Source: Trypanosoma brucei
Lineage: Eukaryota
Reading direction: 5' to 3'
Assembly: GCA_000002445.1 (NCBI GenBank)
Contig: CH464491.1
Location: forward strand, 3,328,001-3,392,000
DNA: 64,000 nucleotides
Position numbers and translations under genes: made by a program
Notes under the pieces: generated by a model
Databases searched by the model: none
The model's input: the letters and a program-made list of their open reading frames with translations, nothing else
What the model was told of the DNA's origin: nothing
Shown: positions 1-30,743 of the stretch, one piece after another
Numbering within the stretch: the stretch's first letter is position 1
Layout of the letters: every line of letters starts with the position of its first letter

Positions 1-154
1 TATCCCGGTTCTCCTTCGTTTCATTCTGCGAGCTTCTGCACAAATATGTGAATGATGTGTTCTGTATGTCATTTTGTTATTTTTTGCCCTCCACTTCATC
101 ATTATGGTTACCCTTGGACAAGGTGATTTAGGGACTACCAAAGTGGTGTGAAAC

Positions 155-1225
155 ATGTTCGACTTGATGGCAGACGCGTGTGCCGCTTACATGGAGGACA
201 GCGAACCGACAAAAGCCAGGATTGAAAAAAACACGGAGGGCGAAGGGAGGGAGAGGAAGGGAAGAACCTCCCAATGTCCTAAAGAGCGGTGTGTGCGCCC
301 AAAAAATAACTTGGCGCAGGGTGACAAAGAATTCAAGGAACACAAACAGCGGGTGATGTCGAACCTTTCAAGCAACATGTGCGACCATAGTCCAAAAGGT
401 GGGGTTGATCGTAAGTGCCTAAAAGTGATGGAGTTACTAAACAATCACCAAGATTATGTCACAGTCAGCAGTTGTAGTGGTCGCATCGCCCTCTTCCATA
501 GCACCCCCATCCTGGAGACACTTCATGATTCTGTGAATGGCAGCTCCAGTACAAAAAGCGCAGCGGTTGTGGGGAAGCGGGGGAGCAAAGATGCCTTGGG
601 GTGGCTTGTGGTTAAACATGGTGAGCTAACGGAGGAAGAGATAAACCAAATTGTGAAAGGTCTCTGCGGAGACGAGGCCGAGGATAGTTCCAACACCCAC
701 AGCTCACCACAGGTGCGTGAGGTGGCGGAAAGAAAGTTCAACGGAGATGAGGATGAGTTGGACGGTGTTTGGATGCAAACTGGGGTCCTGGCACCAATTC
801 CACTTCCCTCGTTTGGCACTGTTACACTTAAGATGGAACCTTTCGTGATGCATGTGGCGTGCCGAACGATGGAGAGCGGGAAGCGGTTACTGACAGCTGC
901 AGCAACCGAAGCCGGTTTCCGAAACAGTGGGGTGACGCCACCGGGGAAGCGAGTCGTTTGCGCCATCCGAAATGCAACGGGGGTTGGGTTGGATATACCT
1001 CTGGTTGTTGACGGGGTGAACTATGCACGAGGTCAGCATTCCTATGTGCGTCGTTTGCTGTTGTTGGCAAACGAAAAGATGCGCAACAACGATTTGAGAC
1101 GGCACAGGTTGGAGGTGGGGGTTGCTGCGTTCCTCGAGAGAGGGCATGAAACACCGCAGTGTAGTCATGAGGAGCGTATGCGGCTGCCACCACCGTGTGT
1201 TCTCGGCAAACACCCCGATGCGTAG
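155..1225 (+). CDS. TYW3: tRNA wybutosine-synthesizing protein 3 (TYW3) homolog
   Basis: The translation aligns with human TYW3 as I remember it. Matching blocks are KGGVDRKCLKVMELLNNHQDYVTVSSCSGRIALF (human [34 protein letters not shown]), LKMEPFVMHVACR...AGFRNSGVTPPGKR (human LKFEPFVLHVQCR...SGFRNSGITVGKRG), and LLLLANEKMRNN. The ATG at 155 was checked in the sequence. The EFKEHKQR block also matches the human N-terminus, so the start is at or near 155 (alternatives are the in-frame Met residues 5 and 13). Confidence 0.75.
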   Translation: MFDLMADACAAYMEDSEPTKARIEKNTEGEGRERKGRTSQCPKERCVRPKNNLAQGDKEFKEHKQRVMSNLSSNMCDHSPKGGVDRKCLKVMELLNNHQDYVTVSSCSGRIALFHSTPILETLHDSVNGSSSTKSAAVVGKRGSKDALGWLVVKHGELTEEEINQIVKGLCGDEAEDSSNTHSSPQVREVAERKFNGDEDELDGVWMQTGVLAPIPLPSFGTVTLKMEPFVMHVACRTMESGKRLLTAAATEAGFRNSGVTPPGKRVVCAIRNATGVGLDIPLVVDGVNYARGQHSYVRRLLLLANEKMRNNDLRRHRLEVGVAAFLERGHETPQCSHEERMRLPPPCVLGKHPDA

Positions 1226-1486
1226 GATTGGAGGGAAGGGCTGCATTCGATGACTGTTGGGTGTCATACCCCTCTTTAAGGTGTCATCTGTTAATGTCTT
1301 CGTTCTGGCACGCACTTGTGCCTTCCACAAGGGTAGTGAACCATCATAGTTTCTCCCTCCCTATCTCTTTTTGGTCTTTCTACCCCATCGTCCTTTCGCC
1401 AAATGTGTTCTGCGGGCGTAGGGAACCCCAGCAGTAGAAACAGGGATCGACGACAAGAGTAGGTGCACAACAGAAGGGTGTCAAAT

Positions 1487-1924
1487 ATGGCCGCAACAAA
1501 CTCACCCACAGAAGAGGAAGTTGTTATGCGCTACCAGCAGCTCCGTCAAGAGTGCCTCGCCATGGACTCACGCATCTCCGAACTGGAGAACGAGCTGCAT
1601 GAGCACCAGTTGGTGGCGGATACTCTCAAGCCACTGAACGGTGATCGCCGGTGTCATCGCCTTGTGGGTGGGGCGCTCATTGAACGCACAGTTGCAGATA
1701 TATTACCCGAGCTTGTGGAAAATATTAAGGGTATCGAGGAGGCGTTAGCGCAGCTGAACAAGATGCTGACAGAAAAGCAAGCAGCGATGGACGAATACGC
1801 GAGGAAGCATGGTGTGACCGTAGCCCAGCGGCAGGGTCAGACCCCCGCTGGTGGAGGTGGCGCCAATAACGATGAAGGGGAAAAGAAGCCGATGGGCGCA
1901 GACAGCAGGGGTGTTCTGGTATGA
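1487..1924 (+). CDS. prefoldin beta-type subunit (prefoldin subunit 2-like)
   Basis: The protein is 145 aa from the ATG at 1487; the ORF-track start at 1463 is a GTG. The coiled-coil profile and the motif RRCHRLVGGALIERTVADILPEL are typical of prefoldin beta subunits. A short, acidic, Gly-rich C-terminal tail follows. Confidence 0.65.
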   Translation: MAATNSPTEEEVVMRYQQLRQECLAMDSRISELENELHEHQLVADTLKPLNGDRRCHRLVGGALIERTVADILPELVENIKGIEEALAQLNKMLTEKQAAMDEYARKHGVTVAQRQGQTPAGGGGANNDEGEKKPMGADSRGVLV

Positions 1925-2429
1925 GTGGTGTCCAGGGAAAGAGGTCGGCGGTGAGTCGTATAGAGTTGCGTCTGCATTTACGTGACAAATGCATATATCA
2001 TTCGAGAACCCACACATATACGCGTGCCGGCGAAGGGTTTGAGCGAAAAGAGAGGGATGGGCTGCCGACGGAGGCCGGCGAGAAGGTGCCTGTGTGGCGA
2101 CCCCCTGACGGGTTCCCATCGCCGGTGACTTGGTCGGGGAGGAGCTCTCTTTCCTGTGGTTTGAAAAAAAAAGTAATAATAATAGTAGGTAATGGGTCCA
2201 TACGCTAAGGGAGGTGCTCCCCTCCTCTTGTTCTTTTTTTCTTTAAACGGCCAATGGCAACTGTCGAGAGTGCAACCTTTGTTGTTGCTGTTGTTTCTTT
2301 GGCTGATGCGTGTTTCCACGATCAACTCTTCACATTAGCGCCTACGCACATTTGTACATGACGCGTTTTTTTTTTTCCCCCTTCTGCCTGCTCACATTTC
2401 CCCTCCCCTTTTATCTAGGCTTTGGAAAT

Positions 2430-3485
2430 ATGCAGGTTAGCGACGGCAATCCTGCCATGCCTCCACTGAGCGTCATCAAATGGTGGTATGAAAAAGATGA
2501 TGAGCAACGGCGGGCCTTTCTAGCGGCGGATAATATTTCTGAAAAGGTGCAACAAAACATTCGCGCAGTCGAGTGCTTTGCCGAACAGCACAGTTATTAC
2601 ATTATGTGCGAGACAAAGTTAGCGATACGACCCCTTCCCCCACTCTCACCGCAACCAAATCAACCGCGCTCTCGTGCATGGCTCGGTGATGTCGCTTCAG
2701 TGTGGTTACCATGTCCCGTACACGCCATCATGGATTACGGCGGGAGGTATCAGACGACAGAGCAGAGGGAGGCGCGCCGCAAAGAGGCGGAGCGGCTCAT
2801 TAGCATTATATACTCACGAACAGCTTCTGTACTGCATAGCTACTGCGGGGCCCAACAGGAAACGCAGAAGCATGCCAATGGTAAAGACAATTCATCGGAG
2901 GCGTGGAGGTCCCGCTCGGCTCGCATTCTCGTCGATGTGTTAGTTGAAGCGTCCGTTGCGGCACTGTGCCGGTTGGGTCTCACCGACGAGTTGGAGGCCA
3001 TAGAAAAACAAAAATCGAGTAGGAACGAAGCGGCGCTGGAGGTGCGTGAGGCGCCGCTATTCGCTGAAACCCCCAAACCAGTTGGGGCATGTCGTGCTGA
3101 GGCGTGGGGATGTTTAGGTTTGTGGGAGATTTTGCAGTCGAGAGTAGGAGACGTATCGGAGCTGGTGACACTTTTTTCCACCTCGGTTGCTGCAACGTCG
3201 GGTGCGAAGCGTCCGCGGGTAGACGAGTCGAACAGCAGCCCTTCCGAAGGCACTACAGAAGCGGCAAAGCCGAACCAATGGAAAGTTCTTCGTGAAGTGT
3301 TTTGCTCGCTGGTGCCCGGTACGGATTCGACACATGGCGAGCACGACTCCACTGATGATAATAACAGTAAGAGCCTATCGCTAATTCCTTGCCGTAAGGC
3401 TCCACGTATAACTATTACCGCAGCAGACGTGCGTTGTGGTATTGCGAAGGTGTTGAAGAAACACCGACCGGTGAAGCCTTTATAA
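2430..3485 (+). CDS. hypothetical protein (351 aa)
   Basis: The long ORF has ordinary protein-like composition. The ATG at 2430 sits directly after a ~50-nt polypyrimidine tract ending in AG (2370-2425), which is the classic kinetoplastid trans-splice acceptor context. The ORF track extends upstream to a GTG at 2310, and an alternative ATG lies at 2358. A KRPRVDE motif looks like an NLS. Confidence 0.5.
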   Translation: MQVSDGNPAMPPLSVIKWWYEKDDEQRRAFLAADNISEKVQQNIRAVECFAEQHSYYIMCETKLAIRPLPPLSPQPNQPRSRAWLGDVASVWLPCPVHAIMDYGGRYQTTEQREARRKEAERLISIIYSRTASVLHSYCGAQQETQKHANGKDNSSEAWRSRSARILVDVLVEASVAALCRLGLTDELEAIEKQKSSRNEAALEVREAPLFAETPKPVGACRAEAWGCLGLWEILQSRVGDVSELVTLFSTSVAATSGAKRPRVDESNSSPSEGTTEAAKPNQWKVLREVFCSLVPGTDSTHGEHDSTDDNNSKSLSLIPCRKAPRITITAADVRCGIAKVLKKHRPVKPL

Positions 3486-4203
3486 GAAGACAAAAAGAGA
3501 TTTATTTCAATAAGCGGATAGGGGAAGGCTACAGCGCCCATACCTTCATCCCCGTATGGGGAAATAAAGGATATACACGAGTTATGGAGCAAGGCATCTT
3601 TTCTTTATTAACCCTTTGTTATTTAAGGGGACCCCCTCCCCTTATCCTCCCATAGGCTTCGGAATAGTGGACACAAGCAAGGTTGCGATGCCTTGACGCA
3701 ATGGACTTTGATTTTTGTACACACCTTAAAGGGAAGGCATTGCTTCGGAGAGGAGCAGCCGAAGATTAAAGTAAAGTGAATAAGGCCACTAAGTGTTTGT
3801 GTGTTTATCTGTGGTTGGAGTGGAGTGGAGTGGATCAACTTACTAACGGTTATCATGAGTGAAACGTGTTGGTAACTGCCATACCCGGAGCACGTGTCAT
3901 TAATGATTGTATTGGGTGCAATATGCTGTGGGGTAAATTTGAGTGGGGAATTCGTTGCCGCCTCAACAGGAGATGTGGCTTTTGAGGAACAAGTGGCGCA
4001 AGGCCCAGGCCGCCGGGCGACTTCTTTCCCGCGGTTGTACAACAGAAAAGAAAAAAAAAAAGAGGCTCGATTTGTTCGATTGTTTTGTGTGTAATGGGTG
4101 TCGTTCACAGCTAAGTGATCACACAACGACCGCTCTCTGCGTCTCTACCTACACATACAAAAGGCAAAAGATACGATAGCAGGCGTGAAGAATCACTACC
4201 GGC

Positions 4204-4656
4204 ATGCACTTAACCTTAGGTGTGTTAACGGAGGATGAAGATGCCCGCACTGCCCTCAGTGAAGCTGTAGAAAACCAATGTCTGCCCCGATTTGAAAACA
4301 ACGATGGTCCCCTTTTGGATGTTTGGTTAGGTGAACGAAAACTATTTGGTCTCGTCGAGCGTGTCGCGCCGAATAACTTTCTGCAAGTTACCTCTGAGAA
4401 TGGAGGCACTGCAAAAGGCGAAAGCACTTGTGCGGATGATCCGCACGATATGCGCGTGACAGACAACGTTTCATTTATTATTCGCCTTTCATCGGTGCCA
4501 CATACGTCCCTTCAACCTGGCTTTACTGCGGAAGATGCCTTTGTGAACTGCACGCGCATTGTCATGGCTTATTCGGCACAACTGGAGCGCGGTGCGTCGG
4601 CGGAGCTCGTGGGCTCCGACGCAAGCGCTGAGTACATGCGCTTCACAGAAAAATGA
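4204..4656 (+). CDS. hypothetical small protein (150 aa)
   Basis: The ORF is in the same orientation as the surrounding cluster and the ATG was verified. The sequence is non-repetitive and of normal complexity. I recognise no family. Confidence 0.35.
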   Translation: MHLTLGVLTEDEDARTALSEAVENQCLPRFENNDGPLLDVWLGERKLFGLVERVAPNNFLQVTSENGGTAKGESTCADDPHDMRVTDNVSFIIRLSSVPHTSLQPGFTAEDAFVNCTRIVMAYSAQLERGASAELVGSDASAEYMRFTEK

Positions 4657-7600
4657 AGGGGAATGCCCCCGCTTGTGCGCATAAATGCGGGGCCAAATTA
4701 TTCAACTTTCTTATTCATGGTCGTAACAACCCCTTAATGATCGCACCTGTGAGGGCGCAGCGACCATATGCCACTGCCAACACTGCCCCAATCCCTTCTT
4801 CGTAACATTTTTTTTGTGGTTTTTCCAATGCCGCTTTATGCCTCCCGTAAACCAAGGCTGAAGGGAGATGCATAATTCCAATGGAGGGTTGCGCATCAGC
4901 GCATCCACCGCAGACCCTCAGTCACCCAAGCCTCAAGAACAGAAAGACTCCATACACCTCTGGTCGTGGGAACTGTTCGTGGATGCAAAAAGGAAGCGTT
5001 TCAAGCCTTCGGCGGTAACGGTACCCATCTCCTTTTATCTCCATTACGTAATTCAATCGTTGCATTTCCCTTTGCTGCCGCATGTTGAAAGCCGCTCTGT
5101 TGATGAACACCACTGGCGAGAAAGCTATGGAGTCGGCAGACACACTCACTTGTCATCCCCATAACATTTAGTGGTGCCAGTTAAACCCCGCGTATCACAA
5201 AAAACCCTCTTTCCGAGTGTCAATGTCCGACGGCAACCCAACACAGCATAGCAGGGTTTCGGCCGCCTTACTCTGATGCCAACATGACCGTGAGAAACTG
5301 TAGCAACGGCGCAGGCGTCACGCCCTGTGAGACTAGGAGCCCACAACCCGCGTTTTAAACTTCGGTATTAGAACCGAGGACTTCGGCCACGTCAACAAGA
5401 CAACAAACGCAAGCAACCCCCCGCATTCCACAACCTGATGGACCCTCATTGACCTTGTGAGCGAAGGGACACTCATCGGTGGCGGTTGGTACTCGGTAGT
5501 GAAAAGGAGGGGTTTAAAGGGAGGGATAATCGGCCCTCAAACTTCTAAGCTGTTTTTACTCATCTTGAACGAAGGCCACATAACACCCGGTGTTCATTTA
5601 ACACAGCGTGGAAAGCTATGGCGCCCGGACGGCTGCACCAGGGTTCTTTTGCTCGTCCCATACAAATTACTCCTTTACCAAATCTGCACCGTCCCAAGTT
5701 GGTTTCCTCCAGACCTTCCTGGTGATTCCGACCACCTCAACGTGGTGCCACTCTCGTCCGGTATCCCGTCTTATTGAGGGGAGCCAAGTGCCTGCAGCGT
5801 CTTGCTGGGACACCGTTTTTCACTTGTCCGTCCCTGGGCACGTGGCAGTGTGCCATCAGGAGTATCATCCGCATTGAGATGCTGCTGTCCAGTTATCGTG
5901 TTAGGAGGCTTATTGCCCCACCTGCCGCATGCCGTGCACTGGCAGATCTAAGACAAAAGAAAAATAATATATGGCGAGATGGTTTAAAGAAGAGACTCTC
6001 AGCCACATCTACTGGTAAGAACCAAATCGAGGCGCTTCACGGTGGTGGCCGGTAGTGGCACCAGTGGGGGAGAACTTCCGTGAAAGCACGATGAAAATTC
6101 TAAAAGAAAAAAGGGAATGAGAGATATTCAATAAGGATTTGGAATGCGTTTTGGTCTCGTGTATCTGTGAAGTTCGTTTGTTGTATGTGTTTTTTTTTAC
6201 CGACTTAAGAAGGACGGCCGACACGTTCATTGTGATTTAAGCACCTTTAATGAGACTGGCGTCGGTTCTCCGCATAACTGAAACGGAATGCAACTGGTTG
6301 AATAAGATGAACTATAGAGGGATGTGCAAAAGATGGAGGCACTGGTACGGCGCAATGTGTGAAGACGGCATAATGACCCTACACCCAAAAATATCGACAA
6401 AGTCAGAAACTGTGCTTGACGACGGTTGGGGTGAACGGGTTTGGAAGCCTCGAGGAAGTCACAAGATCGCTTGCAAGGGCAGGCAACTCTCAGGATGTAA
6501 AACCGTGTACGGCAGAGGCGTGCCAAAATATCATCTCCAGAAAACCAGAACACACATGCGGATGGAGTACCAAGGCCCGCTGGTGGTGACCGCGAGTCTG
6601 CCGAAAGCGGCAAACCGGTTAAACGAGATGTGACCGACTTGAGAACCAGCGCACCTCCGCCAAATCAAGGGAACAAGGAAGATGGCGAACAGGCTGATCA
6701 TGTCAACACGGACCAACTCCAGGAAGGACGAGAAAAGAGGACGGAAGATACGGCCACTGGAGGCGAGGGGTTCAAGGGGGGGAAAATAGCATAACAAACC
6801 GATATGAACTGGAAAGCGCTCCGTTTTTCGCTGTATTAAGGCTCACGAACAAATTAACAGTGTGAAAAAGAGTTGCGAGCTTCGCCCAAGACGTAACCCC
6901 GGGGGGGGTGGAGGTTGCACCGCAGGTAAGTCCAAGGACAGCGCGAATGCAGCGTGGGAAGCAGTGGGGAGCTCGTAACGGCCCCAAAGCACCAGAAAAC
7001 ACCAAGATCAAAGTTAATACTTGCCGCCCCACCCGAAAGTGCATGGACTAAAGATGCCCGGCAGTCCAAACCATGGTAATTCCAGAAGGTCGCTATGGCA
7101 AAGGTTTATGCATTAGACATAGGGCGGGCAAGTCACCAGGCTGTGTGGGAAAAGGCTTTCGTGCGCCGCGCAGATGATGTTCAGTTGGAGGGCGGAATAC
7201 AATTATTTGGGAAATCAGGCTGAGAAAGGTGGCGAAATAGTAATTACAAAAAAAAAACATCGACGGGAAGCACAACGGCGTGGGAGGATAACACCCAACA
7301 TTTGGGGCACCAGGCTGAAGAGGTCCATGCCGACGGTGCACTCGGCTTTTCGACCAAAAAAAGAACGAAACCTGGTGTGGACGTAAAAGGGTTGGGGTTA
7401 GGGGGGAGGGGATGCCGTGCAGCGAAAATTCCGCTCCCCAAAGGGGCTATTACCTCAAACAAGTTCCTAACAATAGGGACGGTGATATACTGTCTTTCGG
7501 CACAAAAGTGTTTATCAACATCCGAAAAAATGCGCACTAACGAAAAATAAATATCTCTTGTGCCATTTGAATTATTGATGCGTCGAAGTTGAGAGAGATG

Positions 7601-7694
7601 GCAGCCGTCTTGGGGATTGCTTTTGAGCGTAATCAAAATTGGAGGTGCACATTTCTTTGAACCTGTGTCTTTTCCTTTAACTGTTAATAGCAAG

Positions 7695-8957
7695 ATGGAG
7701 GGTTTGTGTGGGTGGTGGTGCATCCTATTTGTCGTAACAATCTCTCAAGCTGGTGAAGCACAAGAAAAACCAATTAACCGGGACGAGTTCGAAGCCCTGT
7801 GCAGGTTTATAAATCTCGCGGGAGACAGTGAGACACCAACGAAGGTTGAGAAAAATGTCAAGCGAACAGTGAAGAAAATTCTAACCGAAAGTGGGGTGGC
7901 CGATAGCAGGAAAAAGGAACTCGAAGATCTGCAAAAGCAAGCAGAGAAGTATCGAGAGGAAAACATGTCATTTTGGGAAACAGTAGGGATGGGGGAGATA
8001 AATAGGAGCTTGACGGACGCACTCTACGGGGAGAACCACAACGCCGTTGTTAAAGCACAAGGGAGTAGAGACCCCATCTGCGGCGCCAGAGAGGCGGACG
8101 CGGGTACGGAGGCAGGAAAGTCACTGGTGATCGACTTATTTTGCCTATGTTCCACATCGCCAGAACTTCACAACTTTCAGCAGATTTGCTGCGCCGACTG
8201 TCGAGGTGGAGCAAACGACCACCCCTGGATTCCTTCGGAAGATGGGAACCAGAGATGGAAGTTCCTTGCGCAAAAATGTGGAGAAACTAATCAAGGTGGA
8301 AAGCTCTCAACAGACTCCATTGAGAAGTCAGCCGAATTCTTTTTGAAAACATTGAAAAATCCCTTAGACTCAAGAGCGGAGGCACGCCGCACAGTGCTAG
8401 GAAGCACCAACGGCGATGTTAGCATTAATTGCAACGGTTGGAAAACTTCGGGAAACGGACGGTGCGTCAAATACGATCCAAACCACTTAAATGATGGGAT
8501 CCTGTCAATACCATGGTACGTAAAATTGGCGAAGGCAGCGACCCGAATGGATAAATTAATGGAAGCTGAAAAAACGTTGCGTGAGATTCTGGAAAATGTG
8601 GAGAAGTTGGAACGAAAGCAAGTCGCAATACCACCCAAACCTGCTGACGAGGGTAATGCCGTCCCGAGCGTCTCAAAAGACGTCGTAGAAAACAACAATG
8701 AAAATTCCGGCGTAAGTAATAATCGTGAGAAAAGAGAAAGCAAAGGTGAACTCAACGAAGAGAAATCACCAGGGAGTGAAAAGTCGCCGGAGGAAGTCGA
8801 CTGTGACGGCTGTAAACCCGAAGAAGGGTGTGAGGAGGGAAAATGTGAAAGCGAAAATGGGAGACACGACTCTGAAGGCACAAAAAGGCCACCTGTAAAG
8901 AGCCATTCTGCAACAATAATCGGTGGTTCGTTGAAGTTTTTCTTGCTTTTGGGATAA
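7695..8957 (+). CDS. GPI-anchored surface glycoprotein, VSG/ESAG2-like architecture
   Basis: An N-terminal signal peptide (MEGLCGWWCILFVVTISQAGEA) starts at the ATG at 7695; the track start at 7617 is a TTG. The ~330-aa ectodomain contains paired cysteines (LFCLCSTS, CCADCRGG). A Cys-rich C-terminal region (CDGCKPEEGCEEGKCE) is followed by a serine and a 15-17-aa hydrophobic tail (ATIIGGSLKFFLLLG), the form expected for a trypanosome GPI-addition signal. Confidence 0.55.
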   Translation: MEGLCGWWCILFVVTISQAGEAQEKPINRDEFEALCRFINLAGDSETPTKVEKNVKRTVKKILTESGVADSRKKELEDLQKQAEKYREENMSFWETVGMGEINRSLTDALYGENHNAVVKAQGSRDPICGAREADAGTEAGKSLVIDLFCLCSTSPELHNFQQICCADCRGGANDHPWIPSEDGNQRWKFLAQKCGETNQGGKLSTDSIEKSAEFFLKTLKNPLDSRAEARRTVLGSTNGDVSINCNGWKTSGNGRCVKYDPNHLNDGILSIPWYVKLAKAATRMDKLMEAEKTLREILENVEKLERKQVAIPPKPADEGNAVPSVSKDVVENNNENSGVSNNREKRESKGELNEEKSPGSEKSPEEVDCDGCKPEEGCEEGKCESENGRHDSEGTKRPPVKSHSATIIGGSLKFFLLLG

Positions 8958-10579
8958 AGAGTTCTCCGTAAGCTTCAAAAGAATAAAAAGGTGGTGAAGG
9001 ACACAACTCCAGTCACACAAGCGTAAAAATATTAACCACTGTACCATTCCTGAGTTGTGTGATGGGAAATGAGTTCGCCAACCCAAAGTTTGGAACAAAA
9101 ATGGCCAACTATCGGGGAGGAGGGAGGCAGCGGGTACCACTGAACCATCTCCCTAGTCGCGGTGGTTCCCAGAATATTTTTTTGACGCGTAATGCGTAAG
9201 CCCTATATTATCACCGGAACTGAAAATTTGCTCGAAATATATTGATATTTTTGTTTTAAAGTGCAACGGAAACGAAACACGACAAGTACGTATTTTTATG
9301 AACGTCTAAAAGTTTATCAACTTCTCACATGCAAATTTACTCCCGAAAACAACTATATATAAAATGAAAGTAGTTGCAAATGCGCGAAGAATTTTCTTCT
9401 CCTGTCATCAATCACCGCCCCAAAGCGCCCGTTTAGTCCGTGGGAAAAGGGAGGAAACGTCCTTGCAAAAATAAAAAAACGCCGTGTTGAGACGGTATGA
9501 AATACAAGGGTGGAGAAAGGCCGCGTCCGTCCGCTAAACATCACCCGTTATTGCGGATTGCGTGTGACACTCTCAGGAAATGTTTTCGTGTCGGGAATGG
9601 GAACGCAGAACAACAACAGCACAGTTTCACAACCCCTGTCTTCTTTAAACGCCCGTATTATGTCAAAAAAAAAAAAAGACAGTACAACTGGAGCGCCGAT
9701 ACGCGTGACGTCGGGGGTAACTCTGTCTCTCTGTTTCGCGTAATCTTATCTTATTAGTGCCATCCGATCCGTGCCAGCAAGCCGCAACACTCATGTTGAT
9801 GGAATAACTCCGCCGCCGGCACACCGCCTTCTAAGAACCCGAAAAGGCGGTTTGGAAAATGGATGGTGGGAGGTTCCGCTCGAAGGTTATTTTATCAACA
9901 GCTGCAGCCCGGCAAACTTAACATGGCGTTGAATTAACGATAGCTGAGAAACTGCGCGACACTCTTCTCGAAACCAACGGACCGCTTCTTTCAGTCCCCT
10001 TCGTGTCATTTCATGAAACCCGTCTTGTCCAAATCCCCTCTCGGAATCTCACTGCTCTCCGTCGAAACAGATGGCGCGAAGCGATCAGAAGCCGGTGGTG
10101 GGATTCGGCCACACATCCGCCAAACCTGCCGATGTGATTCGAGTCTCGTTGGGAGGGGGAAGTCACATTATGCAGGTGGATTTGACCTTATATATCACAT
10201 TTTTCCTTCCCTTTCCTCACTGATGCTAGCACAGGGGGAACGTGGAGAGAAATGGGGAAATAATGGTGTGTACAAAGCTTATTTCCTTGCTTCAGACGAA
10301 GGTAGCGGGGGCCCGCGCAGAAGCTTACATGAAAGACGTCCCTGTCAGAACTGCTGGTGTTTCCAAAGGGAAGGAAAAGACAGACTAGTGAGGCACCCTC
10401 CGCCTGTAACGGCACAGTTTGGGAAATCTTAAAAAAAAACTCCCCCAGAGGGGGGAGGGGGAAGAAATATAGAGGGCCACACCCCCTGCCTCTGATACAA
10501 CATCGTTTCGTCATGACTCCTCCACATGTATGTGTTACACCTTTCATCAGCCTCACGGTGTTTCCGGCAGGGCGCATAT
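8958..10579. terminator. convergent strand-switch region where the plus-strand and minus-strand polycistronic units meet
   Basis: The last plus-strand gene ends at 8957 and the first minus-strand gene ends at 10580 (3' end to 3' end). No credible ORF lies between them. The stretch is AT-rich at 9180-9380 and contains a perfect 7-bp hairpin at 9824-9850. Confidence 0.5.
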
Positions 10580-12058
10580 TTACATCCGTGGGGAGGAGCC
10601 CAGAAGAATACGATCCATATTTATTGGTTTAACGAACTTGGGAGTAGGCGAACCCGTTTGAGCAGACGTCCCATTTGGATGGGGTCTGGGCGACCGACCT
10701 CTCAACAACTCAAACCCGGGCTTGCAGTTCGGCGACCTCGTACCTTGAAACTCTGGGGGCGACGATCCCAGCGATAGTTCGGTTGCGCGCCGGCGCAGGT
10801 TTCCAACCCCGTCCCGCAGCCCGGTACCTGTTTTCCTCAAACCTCCCACGCTACGCCCCTTTGAACCACAGTTGGTCAGGCTACCGGAAAGCGCGCTTGA
10901 CGTGTGTCTGCGGTTTCCAGGGGATTTACCCACTCCCAACGTGTTGGTTGCCCTCATTGCGGAAGTCCACGCCGGCCCCGTGGCGAGGGAGTTGTACCGC
11001 TCTCTTTTTGTTGCTGGTCGAGCTGGAGCGCTCCACCCACGGTTCCGAGATGCCACACGCCCTAATGGAGGGGACACTTGTCGGTAGGAGCTCCCGACAC
11101 CACTGGCAGCAGAAACACCGCGATACCCCATGGGGGCAGCGCTCTTCATACGAAGCATGCCAAACCGCTGCTGGACAGACGTCTGGCTACGACCGCCACC
11201 TCTGCGCGCATTCATTTCCGTTTCCATCATCTTTCGCTTTGCCTGATGCGCGGACGCGAGAGCATACAGCCTTTCCCACGGTCCGCTTCCATCTTGGCGC
11301 CGTGAGGCAGCAACACTACGTCTAACAACATTCCCCCGAGAAACTTTGGGTGCAGGGGGGGCGGTCGTGCTTCGTGGCTTGGCTGCGCGGCTCCACAAGC
11401 TGCGCTCGCGGTTCGTTGGCCTCGTTGAAAAGGAGTTTTTTGGTTTGTACAGTGCTGTTGGCATTCTCGGTTGTGACAAGGCTTTGCGCCGTGGGTTCCA
11501 AACAGGCCTACGAGGGGCGCTCTCCTTGAATGGCCCCTTGTTGTTACGATATTCCTCCAACTCCCGCCGAACGCGTTTCCATAAGTCCTCAAGGGACACA
11601 TCCTCCCGATCGTCCACATCTCCCCTTGCATTCTTGTTCAACAATCCCCTCGAAGGGGTGGCTCTATTTCCCACATTTCCGCGCGCCAGCAGCCGGTTAC
11701 GACCAGCTGCACCGCTATTCTTCCCCACGGCTGGCTTGTTACGTTTGACATCATGGGTGCGACTGCGCCCCAACCCACTTGCCATTTCAAAGAGCTCCTG
11801 TAATTTTTCGTGAGACTGTTGCAAAACTGAACTTTGATCCATCCCTCCGGACATGGCGGGTTCGTAGAATGGAGTCGCCGTGGGTAACTTCGCAATACTG
11901 CCGCCGTGAAGGAGGTCATGCCCTTGTTCCAACAATTCCTCCAAGCGCGCCATGGGCCCACCGAGTTCATTGAGGTCCCTTCCCTCAACCCGACCCGCCA
12001 CTTCAAGCGGGCGGCTACTGCCCGTGGACGGAGAAGTATCAAAGGAATCACCACACAT
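10580..12058 (-). CDS. hypothetical basic, low-complexity (R/S/G-rich) protein; paralog A
   Basis: The protein is 492 aa from the verified ATG at 12056-12058; the track start at 12073 is a GTG. The N-terminal ~175 aa are structured and carry motifs shared with the downstream gene at 14074-14526. The C-terminal ~300 aa are Arg/Ser/Gly-rich and predicted disordered. Confidence 0.5.
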   Translation of the reverse strand: MCGDSFDTSPSTGSSRPLEVAGRVEGRDLNELGGPMARLEELLEQGHDLLHGGSIAKLPTATPFYEPAMSGGMDQSSVLQQSHEKLQELFEMASGLGRSRTHDVKRNKPAVGKNSGAAGRNRLLARGNVGNRATPSRGLLNKNARGDVDDREDVSLEDLWKRVRRELEEYRNNKGPFKESAPRRPVWNPRRKALSQPRMPTALYKPKNSFSTRPTNRERSLWSRAAKPRSTTAPPAPKVSRGNVVRRSVAASRRQDGSGPWERLYALASAHQAKRKMMETEMNARRGGGRSQTSVQQRFGMLRMKSAAPMGYRGVSAASGVGSSYRQVSPPLGRVASRNRGWSAPARPATKRERYNSLATGPAWTSAMRATNTLGVGKSPGNRRHTSSALSGSLTNCGSKGRSVGGLRKTGTGLRDGVGNLRRRATELSLGSSPPEFQGTRSPNCKPGFELLRGRSPRPHPNGTSAQTGSPTPKFVKPINMDRILLGSSPRM

Positions 12059-14073
12059 GATGCCCCCCCCCACGTATATGCAGTCAACTAATTATAGGTA
12101 AATATACACAAACGAGAGTACACAGATGCGTGTTGCAAGTGCAATACACTCTTGATGAAGTCCACCTCCCAGCGTTACGCTACACGATTTCCTTTCTGTT
12201 TTTCCTTATCTTCTTTTTTCTTTTACTGTCCAGTCCTCGATTTCTCACTTTCCGCCAAATGTGCTCACGGAGCAACAGTGAGTTCCAAGGATCACGGAGG
12301 TAGACCACGAAAGGAAATATATATTTATATATATATATATATACGGCACCACTTAGGTGTTAATCTCCCGTACGCTTACTGAGACCACAAAACCGTGAGT
12401 TTCAACAGGTCCGACACACAACAAACCGAACAAAATTTTCTTTTCTATACTTTGCCGATAATTCTCTCCCGCGCCCTCTCGCTGCAGGAAAAGAAACTGC
12501 TGAGTGCCCCCTCACTTTACCTTTACACGTACGCACACTCAAACTTCAAATTCCGCCGAGCGTTTATTTTTGATGCTGCTTTGTGGGTGTGACAGGTAGG
12601 GTAAAGGGTACAAAACCTACGGCAACAGTAATGATAATAATAACAATAAATAACTGTGAAAATGACGAAACGAACGCAACAAAGGGGTTGAAGCACAGCA
12701 AGCACCAAGTCGAGGGCCCACTTGCTTCCAACTAATGCGGTGGTAAAAACAAAATATACGCTCCCTCTTTCCTTTCTCCCCGTCCCCGGCCTGGCACTTC
12801 AACCAGTCAATTATCTCTCTCCAATTCAATGGAACTCTCTACGTGCCCACCCTCGTTCGTCCCCTTTACGGGCCTGCGTGCAGCTTTCGTATCCGGTTGA
12901 ATTTTCGTGGACTCCAAACAGCAGGTCAAGTGTTCGTACCAAATATTCCCCTTATAATATATTTATATATTCCCTTTTTTCTTTTGTACACCGCTGACGG
13001 CGTTACTGGTGGATGGCAGGAAGAGCGAGTGGCACCGCCCCCTCACTGATTCCCCGCCGTTGCCTCTATGTTCTATTGCTTTTCCTCCCTTTATTTATCT
13101 TCTCTTGTTTTCTTTTGAATATGAAAATACCAATTACTCGTGATGCTACAGCCACTGTTAGGTGAAAGAAAGGTTTGCCCTTGCCTCCTTCTTTCCTCCT
13201 TCCTGTTCCCTTTTTTTCTTCTTTTTTTCCCCCTTCCTATAGGTGACAAGTTAATTTTTTTTTAAAAAAATAAGTAAATATGTAAACAATGCCTTCAACT
13301 TTTTGATTTGTTTGGTTCTTCTTTTTTTTTAAAAAAAAAAAAGATTAATCTTTGGAGGGGGTTAACCCGCTGAGGTGGTTGGAAAGGCAGCAAGAATTTG
13401 CACTCAAGGCCACAAGCGTAATGGGATCATGCAAATTCATGTGAACACTTAAATCGTCATAAAGGCAGTTGGGGGCCAAACAAAAACACGCAGGCACTTC
13501 TAGGCATGAATATATTTTAAATACATAAACACAAACACGCCATTAAAAATGGAATGCACACGAAACACACAATGCGGTTAACATTTTACAAGAGGAAACT
13601 GACGGGAAAAAAAAACGCAAATTGCACGTCACAAACCTGCAGCAGGGGCCGCACATTCTTAACACGATGGTTGCAAAATGCTCACACCTACATCAGGTAG
13701 TCATAATATGACTGCGGTGGTGAGGTCGCAGTTGAGGCCATATTATTTTTTAACACGCAACGTGGCAACGCTGCCCTCACACTTGTGCCGCAACTTGTGA
13801 AATAAGAGGAACACAAGAGATGGTAACAAAAAAAAAAAAACACTCAGCACTATAATCAAAAAAACGCACCAAACAAGCAGAAAAAAGAAAAATTATAAAA
13901 ATAAAGTAAACAACACAGCACGAAACGAAGTAGGAAGGTACATCTGCGTACATTACGAATTTTATGCACATACGGATATCGACCTGACGGTAAACATTAG
14001 TTCAATCCAAAACACAACCCTTAGAATTCCGATGGCATGTACCTTTATTGTAACCTCAGAAGCGAGGCGTATA

Positions 14074-27346: not shown

Positions 27347-28150
27347 CTAGAAATCTGCGTCCAGAGAGAAAACCTTTGACGACCTTTCGGAACTCATCAC
27401 ACCAGCCTTCTGATACTCACCAACCTTCTTCTCGAAAAAGTTAGTTTTCCCCTGAAGAGAAATCATATCCATGAAGTCAAATGGGTTCTTCGAGTTGTAA
27501 TGACGGTCGTACCCCAAGGACACCAGGAGCCGATCGGCGACAAACTCAATGTACTGAGTCATCAGCTGAGAATTCATTCCAATTAAGCGGACAGGTAATG
27601 CATCGCAAATGAACTCTCGTTCAATTGATACTGCATTGCATATAATTTCAAGCACACGATCCCTCGGCAGCTTGTTTACGATATACTTCTCGTATAATAG
27701 GCAAGCAAAGTCAGTGTGCAGACCCTCATCACGTGAAATCAGCTCGTGCTGAAGGTGAGCCCGGGCATCAAGCCACGCTTCTTTAGCCAAAAAATGGNNN
27801 NNNNNNNNNNNNNNNNNNNNNNNNNNNNNNNNNNNNNNNNNNNNNNNNNNNNNNNNNNNNNNNNNNNNNNNNNNNNNNNNNNNNNNNNNNNNNNNNNCGC
27901 TTGCCGCGAAGAAAGCCAACACATGTTTGATGAAGTGTCGCTCGCCGTCGTCCAGCTTCTCCCAATCCGTCATGTCATTCCCAAGGTCGATTTCCTCCAC
28001 CGTCCAGATACTGCTCTCCGCCTCCTTGTACTTCTGCCATATGTCAGGGTACTTGATAGGGAAGATAACGTAGCGGTCGGGGTTTTCTGTCAGAAGTGGC
28101 TCCTCCACCTCCCCTTCCTTACGCGAGCGCTTGTGAGATTTGGGTGGCAT
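27347..28150 (-). CDS. RNR2: ribonucleoside-diphosphate reductase small chain (R2), copy 1 (interrupted by assembly gap)
   Basis: The sequence matches the other copies on both sides of the 100-N gap at 27798-27897. The missing segment is longer than 100 bp, so the locus was collapsed or scaffolded here. Intactness cannot be judged. Confidence 0.6.
27798..27897. other. assembly gap (100 N) inside the RNR2 array
   Basis: The run of N is visible in the sequence. Confidence 0.99.
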
Positions 28151-28952
28151 CGTTAGCACTGTCCTTGTTTTTCTTCTCTTGATGTGTTTTCAATATACGA
28201 CAGAGCAGCTAATGGAATGAATGAAGAGAAAGCTTGCACACAAGAGGCATATTGAGTAGTGAAGTAGCGAAACAGTGGAAAGAAGTGGACATCCCAACCA
28301 ACGCGCACAATACATTGCCATCGTGTAACTATCAGCACAAAAAGGGTAGTCGCAATAATTGCAACCGTCCCTCCACTATGGCATTACCAAATGGAAAAAC
28401 TAAAACAAGTCAAAGGGAAAAACAATGGGAACCTGACAGGTACAAAAGTGCAAAATGGTATGCCTCTTACACATTTCCCTTTCACCACCCTCACACATAG
28501 AAACTGTCATCAAGCATAGCGTGTAAATATTTGTCAGGTGAGGGCACTCTAAGCACTAATATTGAAACCAATTGTCCACCAAAGGTAAAAAGACAAGAAG
28601 AAAGGCATCTACTAAAGCGGACACATTCTCTCCCATCTATATCTATTTACATAGGTATATATCTATTTCCGGATTTACCCACGTTCGTACTTCCGTACGC
28701 ACGCAGGTTCTCGTGTATGCCTATGTACGATTCTATGTGTTTGCATGCAGGCGTATGGAGGCATACGTGCTGCTGCCCACAAGCTCATTTCCTTGTTATG
28801 ATATTTGTTAAAAACAACAGCCAGTACTCCAAGGAGGTGCAGTCGCTGACCTTACCAGAGTAACAGATATCTAACTCAATGAAAGTAAAGGGCATCAGCC
28901 CCATACTTTACAGTTCCCCTCACATACGGGCACGCACCAACGATAACATCCC

Positions 28953-29966
28953 CTAGAAATCTGCGTCCAGAGAGAAAACCTTTGACGACCTTTCGGAACT
29001 CATCACACCAGCCTTCTGATACTCACCAACCTTCTTCTCGAAAAAGTTAGTTTTCCCCTGAAGAGAAATCATATCCATGAAGTCAAATGGGTTCTTCGAG
29101 TTGCAATGACGGTCGTACCCCAAGGACACCAGGAGCCGATCGGCGACAAACTCAATGTACTGAGTCATCAGCTGAGAATTCATTCCAATTAAGCGGACAG
29201 GTAATGCATCGCAAATGAACTCTCGCTCAATTGATACTGCATTGCATATAATTTCAAGCACACGATCCCTCGGCAGCTTGTTTACGATATACTTCTCGTA
29301 TAATAGGCAAGCAAAGTCAGTGTGCAGACCCTCATCACGTGAAATCAGCTCGTTGCTGAAGGTGAGCCCGGGCATCAAGCCACGCTTCTTTAACCAAAAA
29401 ATGGCGCAGAACGAGCCAGAGAAAAATATGCCTTCGACAGCCGCAAACGCGACGAGCCGCGTAGGGAACGAAGTCTGACTGCCAATCCATTCAATCGCCC
29501 ATTTGGCCTTTTTCTCAATACACGGAATCGTCCTTATGGCATGTAGCAGTCGTTGCTTTTCGTCGGGATCCACAACATACGTATCGATCAACACGGAGTA
29601 TGTCTCACAATGGATATTTTCCATAGCAATCTGGAACCCATAGAAACATCGAACTTCAGGTACCTGCACTTCGCACATGAACCGTTCCGCAAGGTTCTCC
29701 AGCACAATGCCATCGCTTGCCGCGAAGAAAGCCAACACATGTTTGATGAAGTGTCGCTCGCCGTCGTCCAGCTTCTCCCAATCTGTCATGTCATTCCCAA
29801 GGTCGATTTCCTCCACCGTCCAGATGCTGCTCTCCGCCTCCTTGTACTTCTGCCATATGTCAGGGTACTTGATAGGGAAGATAACGTAGCGGTCGGGGTT
29901 TTCTGTCAGAAGTGGCTCCTCCACCTCCCCTTCCTTACGCGAGCGCTTGTGAGATTTGGGTGGCAT
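28953..29966 (-). CDS. RNR2: ribonucleoside-diphosphate reductase small chain (R2), copy 2
   Basis: The protein is 337 aa from the verified ATG at 29964-29966; the track start is a GTG. It is collinear with mammalian R2 as I remember it: [33 protein letters not shown] (the di-iron ligands Glu/His and the radical Tyr), [64 protein letters not shown], and the C-terminal LDADF. Copy-specific residues are HCETYS and DRHCNS. Confidence 0.9.
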
Positions 29967-30743
29967 CGTTAGCACTGTCCTTGTTTCTCTTCTCTTGATG
30001 TGTTTTCAATATACGACAGAGCAGCTAATGGAATGAATGAAGAGAAAGCTTGCACACAAGAGGCATATTGAGTAGTGAAGTAGCGAAACAGTGGAAAGAA
30101 GTGGACATCCCAACCAACGCGCACAATACATTGCCATCGTGTAACTATCAGCACAAAAAGGGTAGTCGCAATAATTGCAACCGTCCCTCCACTATGGCAT
30201 TACGAAATGGAAAAACTAAAACAAGTCAAAGGGAAAAACAATGGGAACCTGACAGGTGCAAAAGTGCAAAATGGTATGCCTCTTACACATTTCCCTTTCA
30301 CCACCCTCACACATAGAAACTGCCATCAAGCATAGCGTGTAAATATTTGTCAGGTGAGGGCACTCTAAGCACTAATATTGAAATCAATTGTCCACCAAAG
30401 GTAAAAAGAAAAAAATACACCCGATAAACAAGTGTCTTACTCCAGACATTAAAATCATCAAATGATATTAGCTATCTCACATGTAACAAGCGCACAGGTT
30501 CTCGTGTATGCCTATGTACGATTCTATGTGTTTGCATGCAGGCGTATGGAGGCATACGTGCTGCTGCCCACAAGCTCATTTCCTTGTTATGATATCTGTT
30601 AAAAACAACAGCCAGTACTCCAAGGAGGTGCAGTCGCTGACCTTACCAGAGTAACAGATATCTAACTCAATGAAAGTAAAGGGCATCAGCCCCATACTTC
30701 ACAGTTCCCCTTACATACGGGCACGCACCAACGATAACATCCC

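What the first reader, a model, noticed from the sequence alone, without database searches (positions are those of the whole stretch)
7695..8957. Lone VSG/ESAG-like GPI-anchored surface protein gene at the very end of a core polycistron, abutting a convergent strand-switch region
The last gene before the convergent strand-switch region encodes a signal-peptide, Cys-patterned, GPI-signal protein with the overall architecture of trypanosome variant-surface-glycoprotein-like families.

It is separated from the preceding housekeeping genes by ~3 kb of ORF-free DNA.

In these genomes, ends of transcription units and strand-switch regions are chromatin-marked (base J, H3.V) and genes placed there are often developmentally silenced, so the position itself is informative.
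Basis: partly seen in the sequence, partly recalled or inferred. Interest (0 to 1): 0.55.

Follow-up and report, generated by a model that had tools for sequence, protein, structure and literature searches.

The report
Known VSG-related gene VR2.1 (Tb927.11.12710)
The flagged gene is real, but it is the already annotated Trypanosoma brucei chromosome 11 gene Tb927.11.12710 (VR2.1), a member of the known "VSG-related" family whose placement at strand-switch regions has been described since 2007, so the finding is correct but ordinary.

Summary
Window 7695..8957 (+) is an intact 420-aa ORF. It has a hydrophobic N-terminus, 16 Cys and a hydrophobic C-terminal tail, and it is the last plus-strand gene before a convergent strand switch (8958..10579). 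A 3,038-bp gap with no recognisable gene precedes it.

It matches Pfam VSG_B (E 6e-46). A model built from a 42-sequence alignment resembles class B VSG crystal structures.

The protein is 100% identical to T. b. brucei TREU927 EAN80221.1. That gene is Tb927.11.12710, old ID Tb11.01.4560, published name VR2.1.

The VSG-related (VR) family is already described as chromosome-internal, sited at strand-switch regions and lacking 70-bp repeats. I confirmed:
- no 70-bp repeats upstream;
- no VSG 3'UTR 16-mer;
- no canonical VSG C-terminal domain;
- 98.3-100% identity across six strains or subspecies.

The two nearest paralogues (chromosomes 2 and 3) have the same "gap, VR gene, convergent switch" layout.

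The "silenced by position" idea is only partly right. Published data show antisense read-through over this gene in a base J/H3.V double null, so the switch region is a J/H3.V-dependent terminator. The sense mRNA is not derepressed. A microarray shows the gene clearly expressed and 2.5-fold higher in stumpy forms.

Function is unknown. Novelty: already known. Interest: low.

The parts
7695..8957 (+). Complete coding sequence of Tb927.11.12710 (VR2.1), 420 aa plus stop
   Evidence: ORF list and translation. 100% identical to TREU927 EAN80221.1. Pfam VSG_B, E 6e-46.
7695..7760 (+). Predicted signal peptide (about residues 1-22, MEGLCGWWCILFVVTISQAGEA)
   Evidence: Hydropathy above 1.8 for windows 3-20. 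The mature-end motif N-x-x-E-F-x-A-L-C, shared with B-type VSGs, starts at residue 28. The cleavage site is inferred; no predictor was run.
7761..8624 (+). B-type VSG N-terminal domain (about residues 23-310), with a ~60-residue deletion between the first and second long helices relative to most B-type VSGs
   Evidence: Pfam match covers residues 56-303 against profile positions 104-351 of 352. Invariant C129, C150, C152, C195, C246 and W274 in a 42-sequence alignment; C257 is nearly invariant, in 90% or more of sequences. Deletion seen in the alignment and shared with the Tb927.3.2500 orthologue. AlphaFold2 pLDDT is mostly 80-97 over residues 21-320. Foldseek top hits are class B VSGs 8b3w, 8ok8, 8onh and 6elc.
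8625..8801 (+). Acidic, Ser/Asn/Glu/Lys-rich linker (residues 311-369), predicted disordered
   Evidence: pLDDT below 50 from residue 336; sequence composition.
8802..8846 (+). Small four-Cys module (C370, C373, C379, C384), a reduced counterpart of a VSG C-terminal subdomain
   Evidence: Cys positions. Aligns with the C-x-C-x-C-x-C module of VR paralogues and of a canonical VSG, but the fourth conserved Cys is replaced. No Pfam VSG C-terminal domain hit at E up to 0.1.
8904..8954 (+). Putative GPI-addition signal (HSATIIGGSLKFFLLLG after Ser403)
   Evidence: Hydrophobic tail. VR paralogues share the C-terminal pattern [KR]RPP..S....PL.LFLLL, distinct from the canonical VSG tails SSILVNKQFALSVVSAAFVALLF and NSFVINKAPLLLAFLLF. 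The omega site is inferred; PredGPI was not run.
4657..7694 (+). 3,038-bp gene-free spacer upstream of the VR gene. A pyrimidine-rich tract (about 7662-7685) and AG dinucleotides (7689-7690, 7693-7694) lie just before the ATG and are a candidate trans-splice acceptor.
   Evidence: No ORF above 159 aa and no Pfam hits. No repeats. No gene called in T. equiperdum. No remnant of the gene found at this position in other trypanosomes. Splice-site reading is inference from the sequence.
8958..10579 (.). Convergent strand-switch region between Tb927.11.12710 (+) and Tb927.11.12720 (-): the 3' UTRs of both genes and the Pol II termination zone
   Evidence: Strand layout. No tRNA or Rfam hit. Antisense read-through over both flanking genes in the J-null H3.V-null mutant (Schulz 2016 S6 Table).
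10580..12073 (-). Facing gene Tb927.11.12720 (hypothetical protein, about 492-497 aa), first gene met on the opposite strand
   Evidence: ORF list. T. equiperdum gene call of 492 aa. ID from Schulz 2016 S6 Table. No Pfam domain. Only near-identical database relatives.

Best explanation
This is Tb927.11.12710 (old ID Tb11.01.4560, VR2.1), a chromosome-internal 'VSG-related' gene of T. brucei.

Shown:
- It encodes a protein derived from a B-type variant surface glycoprotein. The parts are a signal peptide, a B-type VSG N-terminal domain about 60 residues shorter than usual, a disordered acidic linker, a reduced four-Cys module and a GPI-type hydrophobic tail.
- It lacks everything that lets a VSG take part in antigenic variation: a telomeric or subtelomeric position, upstream 70-bp repeats, the 3'UTR 16-mer, and DNA similarity to other VSGs.
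- It sits at the same core-chromosome locus, nearly unchanged, in all Trypanozoon strains examined.
- The adjoining convergent switch region is a base J/H3.V-dependent termination zone, but this does not silence the gene. mRNA is detected, about 2.5-fold higher in stumpy forms.

Inferred:
- It is most likely read as the last gene of a Pol II polycistron.
- It is made at a modest level as an invariant GPI-anchored protein of the cell surface or flagellar pocket. By analogy with other VSG-derived proteins, a ligand-binding or receptor-like role is the best guess.
- The position at the end of the unit most likely reflects where lineage-specific genes can be inserted without disrupting a polycistron (a synteny break), rather than a dedicated silencing device.
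For: Identity:
- Exact match to TREU927 EAN80221.1.
- ID Tb927.11.12710 with the annotation 'VSG-related' in Schulz 2016 S6 Table.
- Neighbours anchor the numbering: Tb927.11.12840 (434 kDa, DUF4486) is the 3969-aa ORF; RNR2 is Tb927.11.12780; CPSF30 is Tb11.01.4600, four genes on from the VR gene. This makes the VR gene Tb11.01.4560, VR2.1.

Fold and family:
- Pfam VSG_B, 157.7 bits.
- PDB sequence hit mVSG1954 8b3w, E 4e-9.
- Model pLDDT 75.9; Foldseek top 28 hits are all class B VSGs.
- 104 representative relatives. The 19 whose source names were looked up are T. brucei-group VSG or VR proteins, plus one T. congolense VSG.

Not a variable VSG:
- No tandem or 70-bp repeats upstream.
- 16-mer TGATATATTTTAACAC absent within 3 mismatches near the gene.
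- No Pfam VSG C-terminal domain.
- No DNA similarity to paralogue loci.

Conservation:
- 98.3-100% protein identity in TREU927, Lister 427, EATRO1125, T. b. gambiense and two T. equiperdum assemblies.
- 2/1263 differences and no indels in the CDS, against 31/4766 differences plus 27 gap columns in the non-coding flanks, versus T. equiperdum. Fisher p = 0.03. This matches TYW3 at 2/1071.

Layout is a family trait:
- The chromosome 3 and chromosome 2 paralogues are also the last genes before a convergent switch. The chromosome 2 gene has a 4.5-kb gap upstream.
- Literature statement of the same.

Expression:
- Jensen 2009 Table 5.
- VR proteins as a family are enriched in a bloodstream-form surface proteome.

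Synteny break:
- TYW3, prefoldin and the next gene are conserved in five other trypanosomes; the order then diverges.
- T. theileri has its own signal-peptide plus hydrophobic-tail genes at this position.
Against: - No direct data here on the protein itself. Tb927.11.12710 was not found in the held supplementary files of the surface proteome paper.
- Which polymerase transcribes VR genes is stated to be unknown (Black 2020). 'Last gene of a Pol II unit' is inferred from strand and position only.
- The signal peptide and GPI signal were judged by hydropathy and alignment, not by dedicated predictors.
- Strain conservation is weak evidence for selection because Trypanozoon genomes differ by under 1% overall; the flank-versus-CDS contrast rests on 2 versus 31 differences.
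- The expression data come from one microarray study.
- The receptor-like role is analogy only.
Confidence: 0.77

Rival explanations
1. The gene is positionally silenced. Pol II terminates early at base J/H3.V chromatin before or within the gene, so it is off in most stages and switched on developmentally.
For: The flanking switch region is J/H3.V dependent, shown by antisense read-through in the double null. Reynolds 2016 shows that other VSG-like genes at the ends of internal units are repressed this way. VR2.1 mRNA changes 2.5-fold between slender and stumpy forms.
Against: The sense RNA of Tb927.11.12710 is not in the more-than-4-fold-up lists for the J-null, H3.V-null or double-null mutants. 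Its IDs do not occur in the held supplements of the H3.V-knockout study, although I did not confirm that these hold the full gene list. The microarray signal of 18,586 is in the range of well-expressed genes in the same tables.
Confidence: 0.08
2. The gene is its own transcription unit, driven by a promoter (Pol I or Pol II) in the 3-kb upstream gap, in the manner of a monocistronic metacyclic VSG expression site.
For: There is a long gene-free gap upstream here, and also upstream of the chromosome 2 VR and of one chromosome 3 VSG_B gene. The literature says the polymerase for VR genes is unknown.
Against: There is no shared sequence or k-mer among the upstream gaps of five VR-type genes above shuffled expectation. 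The gene lies on the same strand, directly downstream of a Pol II unit. No promoter model for trypanosome Pol I was tested.
Confidence: 0.07
3. It is an archival VSG, a silent donor that can be copied into an expression site during antigenic variation.
For: It is listed in strain 'VSGnomes' as VSG 1373 (Lister 427) and VSG 1125.1293 (EATRO1125). The overall architecture is VSG-like.
Against: There are no 70-bp repeats, no 16-mer, no canonical C-terminal domain and no DNA homology to other VSG loci. The position is core and non-subtelomeric. It is the same gene at the same locus in all strains.
Confidence: 0.02
4. It is a functionless relic of a VSG that landed in the core genome and has not yet decayed.
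For: No function is known for VR proteins. The C-terminal module is reduced and the N-terminal domain carries a large deletion. Overall divergence within Trypanozoon is too low for a strong selection test.
Against: The ORF is intact in the six near-identical strain or subspecies sequences compared. All the Cys invariant in the 42-sequence alignment are present. The CDS is less diverged than its flanks and free of indels. The nearest paralogues are only 35-36% identical and still intact, which implies long survival. mRNA is present.
Confidence: 0.06

Closest known systems
VSG-related (VR) genes of T. brucei (Marcello & Barry 2007; annotated in Berriman 2005 genome), specifically VR2.1 = Tb11.01.4560 = Tb927.11.12710
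   Same: It is this gene. It is chromosome-internal, at a strand-switch region, has no 70-bp repeats, has a B-type VSG N-terminal domain, and is expressed outside monoallelic control.
   Different: Nothing differs. Added here: a ~60-residue deletion shared with the Tb927.3.2500 orthologue, a VR-type C-terminal tail motif, and the same locus layout in the two nearest paralogues.
Canonical class B VSGs (e.g. mVSG1954 8b3w, VSG11 8ok4/8onh, VSG615 8ok8, VSG3 6elc)
   Same: N-terminal domain fold and conserved Cys framework. Signal peptide and GPI-type tail.
   Different: 17-20% identity to the closest solved VSG chains (11-12% to VSG3) and 35-36% to the nearest paralogues. Shorter N-terminal domain. 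No canonical C-terminal domain. No 70-bp repeats or 16-mer. Core Pol II context. Invariant between strains.
Other VSG-derived invariant proteins: Fam1 (Tb927.6.1310, flagellar pocket), ESAG2, transferrin receptor ESAG6/7, SRA, TgsGP
   Same: VSG fold co-opted for a non-variant role. Fam1 is also B-type, GPI-anchored and sits at a strand-switch region (Jackson 2013).
   Different: These are separate lineages. Fam1 lacks any C-terminal domain and forms a tandem array. ESAG2, ESAG6/7 and SRA are expression-site genes. No direct sequence comparison with ESAG2, SRA or TgsGP was made here.
T. congolense B-type VSGs
   Same: Detectable homology (P0053, E 1.4e-8; named). Jackson 2013 notes that VR proteins resemble T. 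congolense VSG in structure.
   Different: Those are variant antigens in subtelomeric arrays of another species; VR2.1 is a single-copy core gene.

Membership tests
B-type VSG N-terminal domain (Pfam PF13206) | Significant match to the family profile | tested here: met
   157.7 bits against a gathering cut-off of 25, E 6e-46; residues 56-303 match profile positions 104-351.
B-type VSG N-terminal domain (Pfam PF13206) | Conserved cysteine framework | tested here: met
   C129, C150, C152, C195 and C246 are invariant in a 42-sequence alignment of relatives. C36 and C257 are nearly invariant, in 90% or more of sequences.
B-type VSG N-terminal domain (Pfam PF13206) | Class B VSG three-dimensional fold | tested here: met
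   AlphaFold2 with MSA, pLDDT 75.9 overall and high over residues 21-320. Foldseek PDB hits 1-28 are all class B VSGs, best E 4e-10, target-normalised TM 0.39-0.61. This is a prediction, not a solved structure.
B-type VSG N-terminal domain (Pfam PF13206) | Full-length domain | tested here: not met
   The first ~100 profile positions are not matched. About 60 residues between the first two helices are absent relative to most relatives. The domain is recognisable but shortened.
Functional variant surface glycoprotein (antigenic variation repertoire) | Telomeric or subtelomeric location (expression site, array or minichromosome) | tested here: not met
   The gene is flanked by TYW3, prefoldin, CPSF30, a UBR-box protein, the RNR2 array and an S9-family prolyl oligopeptidase in the chromosome 11 core.
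Functional variant surface glycoprotein (antigenic variation repertoire) | Upstream 70-bp repeats | tested here: not met
   No tandem repeats above trivial score in 3500-14000 and no repeat families.
Functional variant surface glycoprotein (antigenic variation repertoire) | Conserved 3'UTR 16-mer TGATATATTTTAACAC (motif recalled from the literature) | tested here: not met
   The only match within 3 mismatches in the whole window is at 13741, at chance level.
Functional variant surface glycoprotein (antigenic variation repertoire) | Canonical VSG C-terminal domain | tested here: not met
   No second Pfam family at E up to 0.1. The four-Cys module has shifted spacing and lacks the fourth conserved Cys.
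Functional variant surface glycoprotein (antigenic variation repertoire) | Signal peptide and GPI-addition signal | tested here: inconclusive
   Hydropathy and alignment support both. SignalP and PredGPI were not available.
VSG-related (VR) family | VSG homology at a chromosome-internal strand-switch region, without 70-bp repeats | tested here: met
   The family definition is quoted in Jensen 2009.
VSG-related (VR) family | Named member in the reference annotation | tested here: met
   EAN80221.1 is annotated 'VSG-related, putative'. Tb927.11.12710 appears in Schulz 2016 S6. Tb11.01.4560 is VR2.1; the ID mapping was checked through CPSF30 = Tb11.01.4600.
VSG-related (VR) family | Expression not confined to one active expression site or to the bloodstream stage | not testable with these tools
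   Literature only: Jensen 2009 and Black 2020.
ESAG2 | Closest similarity to ESAG2 and residence in a bloodstream expression site | not tested
   No ESAG2 sequence or profile was compared. None of the 19 relatives whose source names were looked up is named ESAG2, and the locus is not an expression site.

The most novel reading that the evidence does not exclude
VR2.1, together with the Tb927.3.2500 lineage, may be a distinct 'short' B-type VSG derivative that acts as an invariant, stumpy-form-enriched GPI-anchored receptor or sensor needed around transmission. Its placement as the terminal gene next to a J/H3.V termination zone would then tune its dose through the amount of Pol II that reaches the end of the unit. 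If so, it would be a conserved surface target and a handle on the unresolved question of what VR proteins do and which polymerase reads them.
Probability: 0.1. Interest if true: 0.45.

Novelty: already known. Interest (0 to 1): 0.1.

Why it matters
It matters little as a discovery. The gene is annotated, named and placed in a described family, and the link between VR genes and strand-switch regions is textbook-level for the field.

The residual value is twofold:
- The scan recognised a VSG-type surface protein and a convergent switch from raw sequence.
- VR proteins remain functionally uncharacterised. The literature calls them poorly understood and says their polymerase is unknown. A conserved, single-copy, expressed member such as VR2.1 would be a reasonable entry point for experiments.

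Tried and rejected
- Word-index homology search with the protein returned only its own cluster. The exhaustive HMMER search was needed to find relatives.
- The single-sequence AlphaFold2 model was useless, pLDDT 40.5. It was replaced by an MSA-based model.
- Marcello & Barry 2007, the primary VR paper, is not held, so the family definition is cited through Jensen 2009, Jackson 2013 and Black 2020.
- Neither Tb927.11.12710 nor its older IDs appear in the supplements of Reynolds 2016, Kieft 2020 or Gadelha 2015. For Kieft and Gadelha this may reflect ID schemes or truncated files, so it was not used as evidence.
- I searched the 3-kb gap for a decayed gene. tblastn with the gene that occupies this position in T. 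cruzi, T. rangeli, T. grayi and T. theileri gave nothing better than E 0.4. The small ORFs have no Pfam hits.
- I searched for shared promoter or UTR motifs among the flanks of five VR-type genes and found none above shuffles.
- The bacterial-type promoter and terminator scan of the switch region is not meaningful for a trypanosome and was ignored.
- Homologue search with the facing gene Tb927.11.12720 gave only near-identical sequences.
- T. congolense synteny could not be examined because its TYW3 orthologue has no contig on record.
Full report
**1. The observation**

The ORF at 7695..8957 (+) is real and intact, 420 aa. The longer TTG-initiated ORF from 7617 is an artefact of the bacterial start-codon rule.

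The protein has these features:
- a strongly hydrophobic N-terminus (residues 3-20);
- 16 cysteines;
- two N-glycosylation sequons;
- a short hydrophobic C-terminal tail.

It is the only VSG-like sequence in the 64-kb window (tblastn).

Genes at 155-4656 and this gene are on the plus strand. Every domain-bearing or annotated gene from 10580 to the end of the window is on the minus strand. The few long plus-strand ORFs in that span lie inside longer minus-strand ORFs. So 8958..10579 is a convergent strand-switch region.

The 3,038 bp upstream (4657..7694) contain:
- no ORF above 159 aa and no Pfam-recognisable ORF;
- no repeats;
- no tRNA or Rfam family;
- no gene call in the annotated T. equiperdum copy of the locus.

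**2. What it is**

Pfam gives a single strong hit, VSG_B (PF13206), at 157.7 bits and E 6e-46.

[quoted passage not shown] It is 98.3-99.8% identical to the copies in T. equiperdum, T. b. gambiense, Lister 427 ('VSG 1373') and EATRO1125 ('VSG 1125.1293'). The window is therefore TREU927 chromosome 11.

The systematic ID was fixed from neighbours:
- The 3969-aa ORF is Tb927.11.12840 (434 kDa, DUF4486).
- RNR2 is Tb927.11.12780.
- Schulz et al. 2016, S6 Table, lists 'Tb927.11.12710, VSG-related' at 1264 bp from a cSSR edge, next to Tb927.11.12720.
- CPSF30 is Tb11.01.4600. It lies four genes beyond the VR gene, so the VR gene is Tb11.01.4560. Jensen et al. 2009 call that gene VR2.1.

**3. Anatomy**

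An exhaustive HMMER search finds 104 representative relatives. The 19 whose source names I looked up are T. brucei-group VSG or VR proteins, plus one T. congolense VSG.

The nearest relatives are only 35-36% identical: the Tb927.3.2500 lineage and a chromosome 2 VR.

Five cysteines are invariant in a 42-sequence alignment, and C36 and C257 are nearly invariant.

Relative to most B-type VSGs, VR2.1 lacks about 60 residues between the first and second long helices. The Tb927.3.2500 orthologue shares this deletion.

An AlphaFold2 model built with the alignment is confident over residues 21-320 (mean pLDDT 75.9) and disordered beyond residue 336. Its 28 best Foldseek matches in the PDB are all class B VSGs: mVSG1954, VSG615, VSG11 and VSG3. 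The only PDB sequence hit is mVSG1954.

After the domain come:
- an acidic low-complexity linker;
- a reduced four-Cys module that aligns with, but does not fully match, the C-terminal subdomain of the relatives;
- a tail (RPPVKS-HSATIIGGSLKFFLLLG) of a type shared by VR paralogues and distinct from canonical VSG GPI signals.

**4. Why it is not a working variant antigen**

- There are no 70-bp repeats.
- The VSG 3'UTR 16-mer is absent.
- There is no canonical C-terminal domain.
- There is no DNA similarity to other VSG or VR loci that could support recombination.
- The locus is in the housekeeping core of the chromosome.

The gene is syntenic and nearly invariant across strains. Against T. 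equiperdum the CDS has 2 differences in 1263 bp and no indels. The non-coding flanks have 31 in 4766 bp plus 27 gap columns (Fisher p = 0.03). The CDS is about as conserved as TYW3 next door.

**5. The position**

[quoted passage not shown] Jackson 2013 describes VR and the related Fam1 in the same terms.

I checked the two nearest paralogues:
- In T. b. gambiense chromosome 3, three tandem VSG_B genes end a plus-strand run, and opposite-strand genes follow directly.
- On chromosome 2, a 4.5-kb gene-free gap precedes the VR gene, and opposite-strand ORFs follow it.

So the 'gap, VR, convergent switch' layout recurs. The flanks share no sequence or motif.

Cross-species comparison shows the end of this unit is a synteny break:
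- TYW3, prefoldin and the next gene are collinear in T. vivax, T. cruzi, T. theileri, T. rangeli and T. grayi.
- What follows differs from T. brucei.
- Four of the five assemblies break there.
- T. theileri carries its own pair of signal-peptide plus hydrophobic-tail genes at the equivalent place.

**6. Regulation**

Published data support the first half. In the base-J-null H3.V-null double mutant, antisense RNA over Tb927.11.12710 and over the facing Tb927.11.12720 rises more than 4-fold, which shows read-through from each converging unit (Schulz 2016 S6).

They do not support the second half:
- The sense RNA is not in any up-regulated list of that study.
- The gene's IDs do not occur in the held supplements of the H3.V-knockout study. 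I did not verify that those files hold the complete gene list.
- VR2.1 gives a microarray signal of 18,586 in stumpy forms, 2.48-fold above slender forms. That is comparable to well-expressed genes in the same tables.

At family level, VR proteins are enriched in a bloodstream-form surface proteome. Black et al. 2020 describe VR proteins as poorly understood, not monoallelic, not bloodstream-restricted, and of unknown polymerase.

**7. Most likely mechanism**

Shown:
- It is a VSG-derived protein with a B-type fold.
- It has invariant, single-copy, core-genome status.
- It lacks the recombination and expression-site hallmarks.
- mRNA is present, with a modest rise in stumpy forms.
- The adjoining region is a J/H3.V-dependent terminator.

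Inferred:
- It is transcribed by Pol II as the terminal gene of the unit.
- It is GPI-anchored and located on the surface or in the flagellar pocket.
- It has a binding or receptor-like role, by analogy with other co-opted VSG folds.
- Its terminal position is explained by tolerance of insertions at the ends of transcription units.

My weight on this reading is 0.77. Rivals and their weights:
- positional silencing: 0.08;
- an independent promoter in the gap: 0.07;
- a functionless relic: 0.06;
- an archival VSG donor: 0.02.

**8. Verdict**

The finding is accurate but already known in every respect that can be checked: the gene, the family, the positional rule and the termination chromatin at the switch region. 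Only the function of VR proteins is open, and nothing in this sequence makes that newly testable. Interest is 0.1.

Noticed in passing
window 27347-35395 (-): A tandem array of ribonucleotide reductase small-subunit genes. There are four full 340-aa copies at about 1.8-kb spacing and one shorter 270-aa copy at the downstream end that matches only part of the Pfam profile. RNR2 is cited as Tb927.11.12780 in the literature.
   Followed up: partly
window 39600-51509 (-): A giant 3969-aa ORF, Tb927.11.12840 (DUF4486, 434 kDa). It appears in a mass-spectrometry table in the supplement of the paper on the base-J-binding PJW/PP1 termination complex (Kieft 2020, file 4). Whether it is a specific interactor or background was not examined.
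   Followed up: no
L002-L006 versus window 1-10700: Synteny breaks after the Tb927.11.12690 orthologue. T. cruzi, T. rangeli, T. grayi and T. theileri have a 333-383-aa gene there (motif CTMGTPECDDEL) with no trace in T. brucei. The 150-aa Tb927.11.12700 has no match in those loci. The T. vivax, T. cruzi, T. rangeli and T. grayi contigs all end within a few kb.
   Followed up: partly
L004:15175-16515 and L004:19856-20719 (T. theileri): Two paralogous genes (447 and 288 aa) occupy the position equivalent to the VR gene. Both start MSMLP.RVL.LLA..FCCVGV.HA. The 288-aa protein ends in a hydrophobic tail (VPLLLLLLSVLGCMA); the 447-aa protein's printed C-terminus (LREMAANALLKSDAL) is not obviously hydrophobic. 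They look like lineage-specific surface proteins and have no Pfam hit.
   Followed up: partly
L009:3603-11290 (T. b. gambiense chromosome 3): Three VSG_B-domain genes in tandem (375, 453 and 429 aa) end a transcription unit. The last is annotated only as 'hypothetical' or 'T. brucei spp.-specific protein' (Tb927.3.2500), although it is the closest relative of VR2.1 and shares its ~60-residue deletion.
   Followed up: partly
window about 6172-6262: This ~90-bp stretch of the upstream gap aligns twice to the T. equiperdum contig (L001 about 8368-8458 and 8470-8560). This suggests a small tandem duplication or indel difference between the strains.
   Followed up: no
window 10580-12073 (-): The facing gene Tb927.11.12720 encodes a basic Ser/Arg/Pro/Gly-rich protein of about 495 aa. 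It has no Pfam domain, and only near-identical relatives turned up in the word-index search.
   Followed up: partly
window 8291-8881 (-): A 196-aa ORF lies antisense inside the VR coding sequence. It is Ser/Leu/Phe-rich and is most simply a shadow ORF of the purine-rich sense strand.
   Followed up: no
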